Shown: positions 1-58,011 of the stretch, in pieces
Position numbering within the stretch: position 1 is the stretch's first letter
Layout of the letters: every line of letters starts with the position of its first letter
Origin: Vallitaleaceae bacterium
GTDB lineage: Bacteria > Bacillota > Clostridia > Lachnospirales > Vallitaleaceae
Direction of reading: 5' to 3'
NCBI GenBank assembly: GCA_029935405.1
Contig: JAOZKH010000002.1
Location: 18,122 to 76,132 of the forward strand
DNA length: 58,011 nucleotides
Notes under the pieces: model-generated
Told to the model about the DNA's origin: nothing
What the model saw: only the letters and a program-made list of their open reading frames with translations
Database searches by the model: none
Made by a program: the position numbers and the translations under genes

Positions 1-1
1 T

Positions 2-352
2 AAAACAACTAGGCATAAGCATAGTGACCATAAAACTAGTAATCATAAAACTAGTAATCATAAAACTAGTAATCATAAAACTAGTGAGCATAAAACTAGT
101 AGTCATAAAAGTAATGATTATGAAAAGAAACAATATAGTGCATCTAAATCTCATGAAAATCACAAATATAGTAGTGAACATAAGGCGAAAACACACTATG
201 TTGAGCCAAAAGGCACAATAAATCAACCTACCAAATCAAAACCGACTCCAAAAAGAGATATTGACTATAGAGAAGAAGCTAAGAAATTATTGGCAACCAA
301 TAAAAAACCAACATTTTTACAAAAAGTTACAACCATGTTTAGAGGTAAATAA
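2..352 (+). CDS. 3' end of a CDS truncated by the window edge; low-complexity His/Lys/Ser-rich tail ending in an amphipathic helix (possibly a DEAD-box helicase tail)
   Basis: Frame +2 is open from base 2 to TAA at 350-352: KTTRHKHSD(HKTSN)n...KKPTFLQKVTTMFRGK*. The stop lies 2 nt before the next ATG. Not in the ORF track because it has no start codon. Confidence 0.7.
   Translation, partial: KTTRHKHSDHKTSNHKTSNHKTSNHKTSEHKTSSHKSNDYEKKQYSASKSHENHKYSSEHKAKTHYVEPKGTINQPTKSKPTPKRDIDYREEAKKLLATNKKPTFLQKVTTMFRGK
29..118 (+). repeat. 15-bp tandem repeat (CATAAAACTAGTAAT), about 6 copies, coding HKTSN-type pentapeptides
   Basis: Units start at 29, 44, 59, 74, 89 and 104; the last three vary. Confidence 0.9.
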
Positions 353-13834: not shown

Positions 13835-13873
13835 TAGTTAAGGTGTCAAAACTTTGTTTTGACACCTTAACTA
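13835..13873. repeat. REP-like perfect palindrome, copy A
   Basis: TAGTTAAGGTGTCAAAAC-TTT-GTTTTGACACCTTAACTA, 18-bp arms, between convergent genes. Confidence 0.9.
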
Positions 13874-13876
13874 TAG

Positions 13877-14518
13877 TTATATCTTTTGCATTTCTGTTAG
13901 AAAAGCTTGAATAGGTTGATTTCCAACTAATTCATATTCATCATTAATAACTATTTTTGGAACGCCTGATACATTGAACTTATTAGATATTTCCATAAAT
14001 GTTTGAGCTTCGATCATCTCAGCATCAATATTTTTATTCATTAGTGCAAGTTTGTGAGCTTTTTGAACAGCACCGGCACAATGTGGGCAAGCAAGAGTTA
14101 CAAAAACCTTAATGTTAATTGCTTTATCGAAACTTTTAATTTCTTTAGTAATATCTTCAGGTAATTCGCTTGTAGCACCTGATACTTCTAATAAAGCCGG
14201 AATAAGAGAGTTGATTTCATGACCAGCAGGTATTCCGTTAAATTTCACACCTTCATATTCACCTTTGGCATTTAATAATACAATACTAGGAACCATTGTT
14301 ACATTGTATTCTTTAGCTAGGTCGACATTATCAGTTGTAGTATATAATTTTACAAATAATTTTTCGCTTAACCCAGATAATTCTTCCATAAAGGATTTGG
14401 TTTCATTACAAGTTTCACAATCACCACCATCAGTAAATAAGGCTATTGTAACATTATCCTCTAATTTTTCAAAAACTTCTCTTAATTGATCTTGTAACTC
14501 TTTATTTAACATTTCCAT
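13877..14518 (-). CDS. Protein disulfide oxidoreductase (AhpF-NTD/glutaredoxin-like, two thioredoxin folds)
   Basis: CETC and CPHC motifs, GIPAGHE, VSGVP. Confidence 0.88.
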   Translation of the reverse strand: MEMLNKELQDQLREVFEKLEDNVTIALFTDGGDCETCNETKSFMEELSGLSEKLFVKLYTTTDNVDLAKEYNVTMVPSIVLLNAKGEYEGVKFNGIPAGHEINSLIPALLEVSGATSELPEDITKEIKSFDKAINIKVFVTLACPHCAGAVQKAHKLALMNKNIDAEMIEAQTFMEISNKFNVSGVPKIVINDEYELVGNQPIQAFLTEMQKI

Positions 14519-15512
14519 AATTTTCGATCCTTTCTTTTGCTTTTTGCATATTTATATAATCATTTGCAGCTAGTGCGGCTTTTGCTCCATCGCTAGTTGC
14601 AATAATAATCTGTTTGTAATTTACAATTGTTACATCTCCTGCAGCATATATTCCCGGGATATTTGTTGCACATTTTTCATCAACAATAACTTCCCCAAGG
14701 TCATTAAATTCAACTAAACCTTTTAATAAATAACTATTTGGTACGTTGCCTATTTCGATAAAAATACCATCTGCTTCAACAATAAAATCAGAATTATTTT
14801 CCTTATCTAATACATTGATATGAGTCATAAATTCTTCGCCTTCAATGGATTTGATTTGGGACTGAAGATGGATATCGATTTTAGAGTTATGATATAACTC
14901 ATCAATAAGAACTTTGTCAGCTCTAAATTGGCTACGGTGAACAATGGTAACATGATTGGCAACTTTTGCTAAATCAAGGGCAGCTTCTACAGCTGAATTA
15001 CCACCACCAGCAATAATTACATTTTTGTTTTTGTACAATGGAGCGTCACAGATTGCACAATATGCTACTCCACGACCAGCTAATCGATCTTCACCTTCAA
15101 CATCTAAATGTCTATGATTAGTTCCTGTTGCAAGAAGAATAGTACGACCTTTAAAAATTCTATTATCCGTTAATTTTACGGAATGTTCATTAACAGCTGT
15201 ATTTGGTGTTATCTCTTCTACATCAACATATTCAGCAATTTGTACGTCTAATGATGAGACGTGAGATTTGAAAGTTTCTACTAACTCCACACCTGTTGAA
15301 TTCTTAGTACCTAAATAGTTATCTACAGATGAAGTGTTTATTATTTGGCCGCCGATTTGTCTTGTGAGTATTGCAACGTCTAATCCTTTTCTTTTTGCAT
15401 ATAGTGCTGCGTTTAATCCTGCTGGTCCACCACCTATAATAATTAGGTCATAAAGCGTATCAGGTGTAGGTTCTTTAATATTGTGATTGTCTAAACTAAA
15501 TTGAAATGCCAT
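14502..15512 (-). CDS. trxB: Thioredoxin reductase
   Basis: IIGGGPAG FAD motif, GVAYCAICD redox CxxC, GGGNSA NAD(P)H motif, YAAGD. Confidence 0.9.
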   Translation of the reverse strand: MAFQFSLDNHNIKEPTPDTLYDLIIIGGGPAGLNAALYAKRKGLDVAILTRQIGGQIINTSSVDNYLGTKNSTGVELVETFKSHVSSLDVQIAEYVDVEEITPNTAVNEHSVKLTDNRIFKGRTILLATGTNHRHLDVEGEDRLAGRGVAYCAICDAPLYKNKNVIIAGGGNSAVEAALDLAKVANHVTIVHRSQFRADKVLIDELYHNSKIDIHLQSQIKSIEGEEFMTHINVLDKENNSDFIVEADGIFIEIGNVPNSYLLKGLVEFNDLGEVIVDEKCATNIPGIYAAGDVTIVNYKQIIIATSDGAKAALAANDYINMQKAKERIENYGNVK

Positions 15513-15555
15513 GATATTTCCTCCTTAGCATCCTTGTTAAAGGTGCTGAACTATT

Positions 15556-16221
15556 TTATGAATTCAAAATTTTGCTAACAGATGATTCTGATATTCCTCC
15601 AAATAATTCGCCTAAACTTTTAAGAGAAAGGGTTGAATTTTTTCTGAAAGCTTTTATTAATTCGTTTCTTTGTTTTTTGTCTGCAGTAAGTTCTGGAACA
15701 TTTGTACCTTTTAATGTGGCGATTTGTGATAGCTTTTTTGAAGCACTACTTATACTAGTTATACAATTATTACAATCTTCAAAATCTACTATGCTTTGTA
15801 TTACTGGTTGGATTTCATCAAAACACATATTATAGCAAATATTTGAATCAGTTGAGATGTTAAGATTATTAATCTGCAACTTGATATCATGCAGCGCGTT
15901 AGGGCTTTCAAGCTCATAACTTTTGTATCTATCAATAAAAAGCTTGCCGTCACATTTTGTATACATTGCATATGCGATATTAATACTTTTCATGATTTTT
16001 GAAAGATCACCACCATTTACATCAATAACTAAATCGTAAGAGTTGTCATCTAATAAGCAAAAACTGTGGAGAATAAAATCATATTTTTGTTGCGTGTTTT
16101 TTAGAATGGAAATAAATTTATCTTTATCATCATTACAAGTAAAAAGATTTCTACAGTGACCACCTTTTTGAATAATGTGATAAGTGCCAAATTCAGATTT
16201 GATTCTTGCTTGTCTTGCCAT
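15556..16221 (-). CDS. RAYT/IS200-like (Y1_Tnp) transposase derivative, predicted catalytically dead, Cys-rich, with C-terminal HTH
   Basis: MARQARIKS..GTYHIIQKG...LF...DKDKF...FCLL..N...LSKIMKSIN..YA...GKLF.DRYKS follows the clostridial RAYT pattern. HUH position reads NSYDL and the YIHxNP position reads QINNLN. C-terminal LSLKSLGELFGGISESSVSKIL HTH. Intact RBS AAGGAAAGGTGA. Confidence 0.75.
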   Translation of the reverse strand: MARQARIKSEFGTYHIIQKGGHCRNLFTCNDDKDKFISILKNTQQKYDFILHSFCLLDDNSYDLVIDVNGGDLSKIMKSINIAYAMYTKCDGKLFIDRYKSYELESPNALHDIKLQINNLNISTDSNICYNMCFDEIQPVIQSIVDFEDCNNCITSISSASKKLSQIATLKGTNVPELTADKKQRNELIKAFRKNSTLSLKSLGELFGGISESSVSKILNS

Positions 16222-16287
16222 GTAATCACCTTTCCTTTGATGAGTAAAGTATATTATAATTCGAGACGAAATTCAAGTACCGTCCCT

Positions 16288-16352: not shown

Positions 16353-16397
16353 TATGGGGTAAAGAAGCATAAAATTAGTTTTGACACCTTAACCATA
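16353..16397. repeat. REP-like copy B (intact right arm, decayed left arm) upstream of the RAYT-like gene
   Basis: GTTTTGACACCTTAACCATA at 16378-16397. TATGGGGTAAAGAAGCATAAAAT before it resembles a decayed left arm. Confidence 0.8.
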
Positions 16398-22964: not shown

Positions 22965-23024
22965 GGTTAAGGTGTCAAAACTACATAGTTAAAATTAGAG
23001 AAACTTAGTTTTGACACCTTAACC
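22965..23024. repeat. REP-like copy C: 19-bp inverted arms around a 22-nt spacer (REPIN-like)
   Basis: GGTTAAGGTGTCAAAACTA-CATAGTTAAAATTAGAGAAACT-TAGTTTTGACACCTTAACC. Confidence 0.9.
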
Positions 23025-39522: not shown

Positions 39523-39561
39523 TGGTTAAGGTGTCAAAACTAAGTTTTGACACCTTAACCA
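39523..39561. repeat. REP-like perfect palindrome, copy E
   Basis: TGGTTAAGGTGTCAAAACT-A-AGTTTTGACACCTTAACCA, 19-bp arms, filling a convergent intergenic gap. Confidence 0.92.
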
Positions 39562-55705: not shown

Positions 55706-55753
55706 TACATAGTGATTGAATTAGAGAAACTTAGTTTTGGCACCTTAAGCATA
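55706..55753. repeat. REP-like copy F: spacer plus right arm, homologous to copy C
   Basis: TACATAGTGATTGAATTAGAGAAACTTAGTTTTGGCACCTTAAGCATA versus copy C TACATAGTTAAAATTAGAGAAACTTAGTTTTGACACCTTAACC. Confidence 0.8.

Positions 55754-57288: not shown

Positions 57289-58011
<723 letters not shown>

What the first reader, a model, noticed from the sequence alone, without database searches (positions are those of the whole stretch)
15556..16221. Catalytically dead, Cys-rich RAYT/Y1 transposase at the head of a thioredoxin reductase operon: candidate domesticated redox regulator
Seen: the 221-aa ORF is intact, has a good RBS, and follows the clostridial REP-associated tyrosine transposase pattern (MARQAR..YH..G..F..D...F...CL..N; LSKIMK.IN..Y; G.LF..RYKS; C-terminal HTH). 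Where these enzymes have the metal-binding HUH (NHxH) it reads N60-S-Y-D63. Where they have the nucleophilic Tyr (YIHxNP) it reads about Q116-INNLN. A few residues before GKLF also appear deleted. It has 8 Cys (23, 29, 55, 90, 129, 133, 150, 153), including CxxxC and CxxC just before the HTH. It lies 43 nt upstream of, and co-oriented with, trxB and a two-CxxC disulfide oxidoreductase. Established: HUH plus Tyr are essential for IS200/IS605 TnpA and RAYT cleavage. Inference: a transposase scaffold has been kept without nuclease chemistry and repurposed as a DNA or hairpin-binding protein, perhaps thiol-, Zn- or Fe-S-switched and tied to the TrxB system. I know of no description of such a system.
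Basis: partly seen in the sequence, partly recalled or inferred. Interest (0 to 1): 0.88.

Follow-up and report, generated by a model that had tools for sequence, protein, structure and literature searches.

The report
Dead transposase turned thioredoxin-operon repressor
A gene descended from a jumping-gene enzyme has lost its DNA-cutting residues but has been kept intact next to the same thioredoxin-system genes in dozens of anaerobic bacteria, and the old transposon end now sits on their promoters, so the protein likely works as a new kind of transcription repressor, possibly switched by oxidation.

Summary
Confirmed and extended. The minus-strand ORF (221 aa) is a TIRYT-type Y1 transposase derivative: RAYT fold (4ER8, Z 14.2) plus a DnaA-like HTH. 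It belongs to one clade in which 0 of 94 members keep both HUH histidines or the catalytic Tyr (20 of 20 relatives do), under purifying selection (dN/dS 0.05-0.3). All 80 related loci have trxB and/or PDO adjacent; 0 of 18 intact relatives do. New: a 14-mer, GGGACGGTACTTGA, one base from the terminal inverted repeat of intact sister elements, lies upstream in 80 of 81 loci and supplies the -35 of a near-consensus promoter. An inverted copy precedes trxB in 48 of 81 and fills the promoter spacer of trxB/PDO in 15 of 15 loci of a divergent branch. Best reading: a domesticated transposase that represses its operon by binding its ancestral ends; DNA binding is inferred. The cysteine switch is plausible but weaker than proposed: most of the eight Cys are not conserved. 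No wide regulon. Not found in ten literature searches; this scan noted the same system earlier on another genome (e1-2740990).

The parts
15556..16221 (-). Catalytically dead TIRYT (TnpA-Y1 subclass 2.1) derivative, 221 aa: Y1 fold (about 1-135), Cys-bearing linker (C133, C150, C153), DnaA-like HTH (about 154-221)
16033..16044 (-). Codons 60-63, N-S-Y-D, in place of the metal-binding NHxH
   Evidence: alignment with 20 intact relatives
15874..15876 (-). Codon 116 (Gln) in place of the nucleophilic Tyr
16273..16286 (-). Conserved 14-mer GGGACGGTACTTGA, derived from the left terminal inverted repeat; predicted operator; single strong copy in this genome
16271..16276 (-). Predicted -35 hexamer TTGAAT, overlapping the last 4 bases of the operator
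16248..16253 (-). Predicted -10 hexamer TATACT, 17 nt from the -35
16226..16235 (-). Ribosome-binding site GGAAAGGTGA
15513..15555 (-). 43-nt gap with a small hairpin (15527-15547) and the trxB RBS; the downstream inverted operator found in many homologous loci is absent in this allele (best PWM score -13.7)
14502..15512 (-). Thioredoxin-reductase-like flavoprotein (TrxB, CAIC), 336 aa
13877..14518 (-). Protein disulfide oxidoreductase (PDO, two Trx folds, CETC and CPHC), 213 aa

Best explanation
The gene is a TIRYT-type Y1 transposase that has lost its catalytic HUH and Tyr and has been kept by selection at the head of a trxB-PDO operon, where it likely binds the site derived from its own terminal inverted repeat and so likely represses the operon's promoter. 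Shown: loss of catalytic residues across one clade, purifying selection, fixed linkage to trxB-PDO, origin of the site from the TIR of intact sister elements, and placement of the site on predicted sigma-70 promoters. Inferred: the protein (conserved N-terminal R3/R6 arm and C-terminal HTH) recognises GGGAC-N5-TTGAA in double-stranded DNA, as the ancestral transposase presumably did at its ends, where the left TIR already held the -35 of the transposase promoter; binding would occlude RNA polymerase (site over the -35, or inside the 17-bp spacer in the divergent branch), and the second, inverted site before trxB would act as an auxiliary operator or roadblock. Least certain (about 45% given the rest): disulfide or oxidative stress modifies the newly acquired cysteines (C133; C150/C153), releases the protein, and induces TrxB-PDO, which would re-reduce it and close a feedback loop.
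For: Both His retained in 0 of 94, nucleophile Tyr in 0 of 94, versus 20 of 20 in intact relatives. Dead proteins form one side of a branch, SH-aLRT 100 (81 rows, quick IQ-TREE; 94 rows, FastTree). dN/dS 0.045-0.295 in the 35 pairs with dS 0.05-0.9; median 0.19, max 0.62 over 86 of 3240 pairs with dS 0.05-1.5. Synteny: 73 of 80 gene>trxB>PDO, 5 gene>trxB, 1 gene>PDO, 1 with trxB-PDO inverted; divergent branch 14 of 15 with trxB, the other with PDO; 0 of 18 intact relatives have trxB or PDO within about 3 kb. Same 9 of 41 relatives carry both this gene and the close PDO, the other 32 neither; in a 401-genome phylum sample the only two other genomes with a >60% PDO are the two with the dead gene. 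Upstream 14-mer exact in 76 of 81, one mismatch in 4, one locus truncated; a -10 follows its TTGA hexamer at 16-18 nt in 78 of 80 (71 at 17) versus 87 of 1360 shifted controls. Intact sisters L100 and L101 have TIR GGGGACGGTTCTTGAATT, one base from the site, and the same HTH motif. Inverted copy before trxB with up to 2 mismatches in 48 of 81; in 15 of 15 divergent loci it fills the spacer between near-consensus -35 and -10 (14 at 17 bp). In L007 trxB-PDO is detached and inverted, and its promoter carries both copies with no gene between. In L064/L065 a further copy gives the -35 of a divergent ArsP-type permease gene. 23 of 24 distant PDO loci from genomes without the gene score under 11 on the site matrix. 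HTH residues R185, S213, K217 are nearly invariant across both branches.
Against: No binding, repression or expression datum exists here. Binding of TIRYTs to their TIRs has itself not been shown; Quentin et al. [quoted passage not shown] The exact site is confined to the cassette in 33 of 33 genomes and looser matches elsewhere (44) equal the reversed-pattern control (39), so site-protein co-occurrence cannot be separated from co-inheritance of the cassette. 28 of 81 loci, including this window, have no downstream copy; 7 of 13 divergent loci lack the upstream copy. In the clostridial branch the downstream copy is followed by a -10-like hexamer in only 6 of 51. For the redox step: C150/C153 are absent in 13 of 13 divergent-branch proteins, C55 is inherited from intact transposases (19 of 20) and is Ser in 5 of 13, C133 counts 66-77 of 81 depending on the alignment. 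One distant PDO locus (L173) scored 18.4 on the matrix.
Confidence: 0.7

Rival explanations
1. Same protein and same site, but it activates (or is a dual regulator): bound at about -45 to -32 it would contact sigma region 4 or alpha-CTD like a class II activator, switched on by oxidation.
For: The GC-rich half of the upstream site lies just upstream of the -35, a typical activator position, and is almost invariant.
Against: The promoters are already near consensus (TTGAAT/TTGACT/TTGACA, 17 bp, 41 of 80 with extended -10 TG). In 15 of 15 divergent loci the site lies inside an optimal 17-18 bp spacer, not the long 19-bp spacer that MerR-type activators need (recalled).
Confidence: 0.13
2. The site is read by another host factor (or only by RNA polymerase), and the dead transposase has a different job, for example a thiol/metal-binding partner of TrxB-PDO or a dominant-negative guard that silences intact TIRYT elements.
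For: The window's genome holds several decayed TIRYT copies with a related TIR. The TTGA part of the site is explained by the -35 alone.
Against: The site is the TIR of the closest intact relatives, and it diverges in step with the protein in the divergent branch while keeping GGGAC and TTGAA. The TIR of this genome's other TIRYTs (GGGACGGTTCTTATTGATT) does not reach the matrix threshold of 15. The HTH is the best-conserved part.
Confidence: 0.1
3. An inert relic: an old TIRYT insertion that donated a promoter to trxB-PDO and decays slowly.
For: The left TIR does supply the -35; the gene is below all family cut-offs.
Against: Open frame and dN/dS 0.05-0.3 across proteins only 32-60% identical; ordinary TIRYT copies in the same genome are internally deleted or truncated; both sites are retained in L007 without the gene between them.
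Confidence: 0.04
4. Still an active nuclease or recombinase using substitute residues (for example Y62 or Cys-bound metal) that inverts or mobilises the cassette between the repeats.
For: Y62 is invariant in 81 of 81 and H63 is kept in 49 of 81; the cassette is patchy in distribution and one locus is inverted.
Against: Y62 is the inward hydrophobic 'U' position and is Phe in 13 of 13 divergent proteins; the second His is freely replaced (D, E, Q, K, R, G); one copy per genome; orientation fixed in 79 of 80.
Confidence: 0.03

Closest known systems
TIRYT / TIRtron (Di Nocera et al. 2013, PMC3733652) = TnpA-Y1 subclass 2.1 (Quentin et al. 2018, PMC6006769) = RAYT Group 1 (Bertels et al. 2017, PMC5581495)
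   Same: Y1 fold with C-terminal DnaA-like HTH, no REP hairpins, flanked by inverted repeats starting GGGGAC (fits their GGGGWSAS-type motif approximately); direct ancestor by tree and by TIR sequence.
   Different: HUH and Tyr are conserved in all TIRYTs they aligned and absent here; Quentin et al. discarded motif-less sequences as non-functional. Fixed gene neighbourhood, extra cysteines, and repeats placed on the trxB promoter are not described.
E. coli TnpA-REP / RAYT (PDB 4ER8)
   Same: Best structural match, Z 14.2, rmsd 2.9 over 131 residues.
   Different: Active ssDNA nuclease on REP hairpins, no HTH tail; here no catalytic residues and a non-hairpin site.
TldR, TnpB-like nuclease-dead repressors (Wiegand et al., PMC10705468, abstract read)
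   Same: Transposon-encoded nuclease domesticated, catalytically dead, repurposed as a promoter-binding repressor.
   Different: TldR comes from TnpB (RuvC) and is RNA-guided; this comes from the HUH/Y1 transposase itself, has no guide RNA in evidence, and would use the element's own ends as operators over a redox operon.
Thiol-based regulators of thioredoxin systems (Spx, OxyR, PerR, HypR/MarR types; recalled, not from a call)
   Same: Predicted logic: a Cys-bearing DNA-binding protein controls trxB and a disulfide oxidoreductase.
   Different: No sequence or fold relation found in Pfam, NCBIfam or PDB searches; redox sensing here is untested.

Membership tests
TIRYT / TnpA-Y1 subclass 2.1 | Y1 (HUH-superfamily) core fold | tested here: met
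   4ER8 Z 14.2; IS608/ISDra2 TnpA top Foldseek hits
TIRYT / TnpA-Y1 subclass 2.1 | HUH motif NH[VYF]H | tested here: not met
   N60-S-Y-D63; both His in 0 of 94
TIRYT / TnpA-Y1 subclass 2.1 | Catalytic Tyr in YxxxNP | tested here: not met
   Q116; Tyr in 0 of 94 at that column
TIRYT / TnpA-Y1 subclass 2.1 | C-terminal DnaA-like HTH | tested here: met
   1J1V Z 7.6, rmsd 2.1 over 64 residues; aligns with intact sisters
TIRYT / TnpA-Y1 subclass 2.1 | Flanking terminal inverted repeats | tested here: met
   Left copy in 80 of 81, right copy in 48 of 81 loci; right copy missing in this window
RAYT / REPtron (subclasses 2.2, 2.5) | Flanking GTAG-type REP hairpins amplified genome-wide | tested here: not met
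   Site is single-copy in this genome and confined to the cassette in 33 genomes; the abundant repeat nearby is a separate MITE
TldR | TnpB/RuvC origin with guide RNA | tested here: not met
   Fold and family hits are Y1/HUH; Rfam was not searched
Domesticated nuclease-dead transposon-derived transcription factor (works-like class) | Catalytic loss with purifying selection and fixed locus | tested here: met
Domesticated nuclease-dead transposon-derived transcription factor (works-like class) | Sequence-specific promoter binding and transcriptional effect | not testable with these tools
   Only promoter geometry and conservation
Thiol-switch regulator | Conserved sensing cysteine(s) | tested here: inconclusive
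   C133 66-77 of 81 and 13 of 13, new relative to intact TIRYTs; C153 79 of 81 but 0 of 13
Thiol-switch regulator | Oxidation-dependent DNA binding | not testable with these tools
   needs EMSA with oxidants

The most novel reading that the evidence does not exclude
A whole transposon was domesticated as a ready-made regulatory module: the HUH/Y1 transposase became a cysteine-based redox-sensing repressor, its two terminal repeats became the operators of a thioredoxin reductase-PDO operon, and the cassette spread among anaerobic Clostridia and Bacilli/Mollicutes-type lineages. This would be a new family of bacterial redox transcription factors and the first described regulator built from a Y1 transposase.
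Probability: 0.4. Interest if true: 0.9.

Novelty: new variant of a known kind. Interest (0 to 1): 0.8.

Why it matters
It would show how a bacterial transcription factor and its operator can arise in one step from a mobile element, with the intact ancestor (one base different in its repeat) still available for comparison. It offers a direct test of an open question on TIRYTs (do they bind their TIRs, and through which domain) and names a candidate regulator for the thioredoxin system of anaerobes where the gene is now annotated 'transposase' or 'hypothetical'. It also shows that motif-less Y1 sequences, filtered out as non-functional in the published classification, can be a selected family.

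Tried and rejected
RNA evidence: no RNA holder was listed, so co-transcription was not tested. Homodimer prediction gave no answer (score 0.00; not evidence either way). ESM Atlas returned no result. Wide regulon: rejected; 44 loose matches outside the cassette versus 39 control matches in 33 genomes, and 3 versus 3 matrix hits in the window's genome. I fetched 15 of those 44 outside matches, chosen by likeness: most lie inside ORFs; 4 (two lineages) lie upstream of Fer4_5 membrane-protein genes, left as a lead. The 226-hit repeat GGTTAAGGTGTCAAAACT (copies at 13838-13870 and 16379-16392) was considered as the target and rejected: it is a genome-wide 33-115 bp MITE, unlike the conserved site. 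CxxxC 129-133 and C23/C29/C90 as conserved metal ligands: rejected. Y62 as substitute nucleophile: rejected (Phe in 13 of 13). Plasmid search found only two partial, distant transposase hits. The careful IQ-TREE run did not finish; the quick tree is reported and no AU test was run. Literature searches without a description of this system: 0 papers; 0; 0; the library lacks most subscription journals, and supplements were not read.

Full report
Observation. The ORF lies on the minus strand at 15556-16221 and gives an uninterrupted 221-aa protein, 43 nt upstream of a TrxB-like gene (14502-15512) and a PDO gene (13877-14518; TIGR02187 above cut-off). It scores only weakly on Y1_Tnp (17.6 bits) and REP_Tyr_transpos (17.8 bits), but the AlphaFold model (pLDDT 78.7) matches TnpA-REP 4ER8 (Z 14.2, rmsd 2.9, 131 residues) and, for residues 154-221, DnaA domain IV (Z 7.6, rmsd 2.1, 64 residues).

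A family, not a decayed allele. A protein search gave 187 homologues, the 120 listed at 41-65% identity. A scan of GTDB genomes confirmed 123 loci, of which the best 80 were returned; their titles name Vallitaleaceae, Acidaminobacteraceae, Fusibacteraceae, Clostridiaceae, Tissierellaceae, Haloplasmataceae and others. A profile search of 50%-identity representatives showed a more divergent branch (two clusters have members labelled Erysipelotrichaceae and Acholeplasma), recovered from 13 further genomes and 2 metagenome contigs. Against 20 relatives with intact motifs (18 from a phylum sample, and 2 from the window's genome), 0 of 94 family members have both His, 0 of 94 have the Tyr, and a 4-residue deletion is shared by 92 of 94. 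The dead proteins form one side of a branch with SH-aLRT 100 in a quick IQ-TREE run of 101 rows (careful run unfinished) and in FastTree with 114 rows; the root is not inferred, and derivation from intact enzymes rests on the HUH/Tyr state being general in the superfamily (PMC6006769). Nei-Gojobori dN/dS is 0.045-0.295 for the 35 pairs with dS 0.05-0.9, median 0.19 (max 0.62) for the 86 of 3240 pairs with dS 0.05-1.5; the window's own allele has no unsaturated close partner. The family is uncommon: 2 of 400 other genomes in a phylum sample, 15 of 400 in a second sample, 6 of 7 in the window's genus and 8 of 24 in its family. By contrast, the ordinary TIRYT copies in the window's genome are internally deleted or truncated.

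Fixed neighbourhood. Of 80 loci, 73 read gene>trxB>PDO, 5 gene>trxB (2 cut by the contig end), 1 gene>PDO and 1 has trxB-PDO inverted. In the divergent branch 14 of 15 have trxB next and 1 has PDO. None of 18 intact relatives has either gene within about 3 kb. Among 41 relatives the same 9 genomes carry the gene and the close PDO. Pairwise identities of the protein and of TrxB correlate over 78 loci (Pearson 0.78, Spearman 0.39), as expected of a cassette inherited as a unit.

The DNA site. Reading upstream regions revealed GGGACGGTACTTGA, exact in 76 of 81, one mismatch in 4, with one locus truncated; in the window it is 16273-16286. Its last four bases begin a -35 hexamer, and a -10 follows at 16-18 nt in 78 of 80 cases (71 at 17 nt) against 87 of 1360 shifted controls. 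An inverted copy lies between the gene and the trxB RBS in 48 of 81 (up to 2 mismatches), is absent in 28 including the window. The closest intact relatives L100 and L101 are flanked by GGGGACGGTTCTTGAATT and its inverse: the site is the ancestral terminal inverted repeat. This identifies the parent class as TIRYT (PMC3733652, passages read), which Quentin et al. equate with TnpA-Y1 subclass 2.1 (PMC6006769, abstract and sections 6, 11, 15 part 1 read). Three natural experiments argue that the repeat now works as an operator. In L007 the detached, inverted trxB-PDO has a promoter with both copies 90 bp apart and no gene between. In 15 of 15 divergent loci the inverted copy fills the spacer of a separate near-consensus promoter in front of trxB or PDO (e.g. 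TTGAAA-17-TATAAT), while 7 of 13 have lost the upstream copy. In L064/L065 an extra copy supplies the -35 of a divergent ArsP-type permease gene. Distant PDO loci in genomes without the gene lack the site in 23 of 24 cases. Across branches the constant part is GGGAC-N5-TTGAA.

Limits. The exact site is confined to the cassette in 33 of 33 genomes, and loose matches elsewhere (44) do not exceed the control (39); the regulon is local. Because site and gene travel together, co-occurrence alone does not prove binding, and Quentin et al. leave open whether the HTH of subclass 2.1 recognises the repeats. The cysteine case is mixed: median 7 Cys against 2 in intact relatives; C133 is new and kept in both branches (66-77 of 81 by alignment, 13 of 13); C153 79 of 81 and C150 60 of 81 but both absent from the divergent branch; C55 is ancestral; C23, C29, C90, C129 are variable. 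No RNA run was listed.

Mechanism. Most likely (0.7) the protein binds the TIR-derived site through its conserved arm and HTH and blocks RNA polymerase at its own and the trxB-PDO promoter; near-consensus promoters and the in-spacer position favour repression over activation (0.13). Release by thiol oxidation, with reset by TrxB-PDO, is the natural signal given the regulated genes but is untested (about 0.45 given binding). A different reader of the site (0.1), an inert relic (0.04) and residual catalysis (0.03) are less likely.

Known and new. It works like TldR (PMC10705468, abstract read) in being a nuclease-dead transposon protein turned repressor, but derives from the HUH/Y1 transposase and would be protein-guided to the element's own ends. 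It fails membership of TIRYT/RAYT on catalytic residues. Ten literature searches and passages of PMC5581495 and PMC5138195 gave no description; subscription journals and supplements were not covered. After I had reached this reading (recorded), a look-up showed that this scan noted the same system on another genome (e1-2740990; also e1-2741376); those are unchecked AI notes and are not counted as support. Verdict: real, conserved, undescribed in the searched literature; new variant of a known kind; interest 0.8.

Noticed in passing
window 13838-13870, 16379-16392, 22967-23022, 23808, 39526-39558, 55735-55748: Genome-wide MITE family with terminal repeat GGTTAAGGTGTCAAAACT: 226 core matches (control 3), 28 full elements of 115 bp and 14 minimal 33-bp palindromes; no autonomous partner found between paired ends. 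One palindrome sits right after PDO and may end the operon transcript.
   Followed up: partly
G000 contigs C71:1017-1632, C24:7614-7895, C100, C128, C213, C216: A second TIRYT family in the same genome with TIR GGGACGGTTCTTATTGATT; the assembled copies are internally deleted or truncated (C71 keeps NHVH and YVH but lacks the middle).
   Followed up: partly
G000:C108:15857-16675: A divergent TIRYT-like gene with intact SHIH and YIHQKP motifs and no GGGAC repeat seen; long branch; possibly another domesticated but active copy.
   Followed up: no
L081:1987, L082:2056, L085:1978, L086:2037: Operator-like sites upstream of Fer4_5 (4Fe-4S) membrane-protein genes in two lineages; a similar gene lies next to the cassette in other loci. 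Possible extra regulon members.
   Followed up: partly
L119, L120, L121 (upstream gene); L126, L129; L128: Other redox genes join the cassette: Fe/Mn superoxide dismutase upstream, a rhodanese lipoprotein upstream (the gene then has no upstream site), thioredoxin and rhodanese downstream.
   Followed up: no
L156, L158, L159, L161-L165, L167, L169-L171: Distant PDO homologues with one in-frame TGA, probably selenocysteine forms; the PDO of this window has none.
   Followed up: no
window 1-135 and 57945-58004: A 15-bp tandem repeat at the window start and an (AGAT)n run at the end.
   Followed up: no
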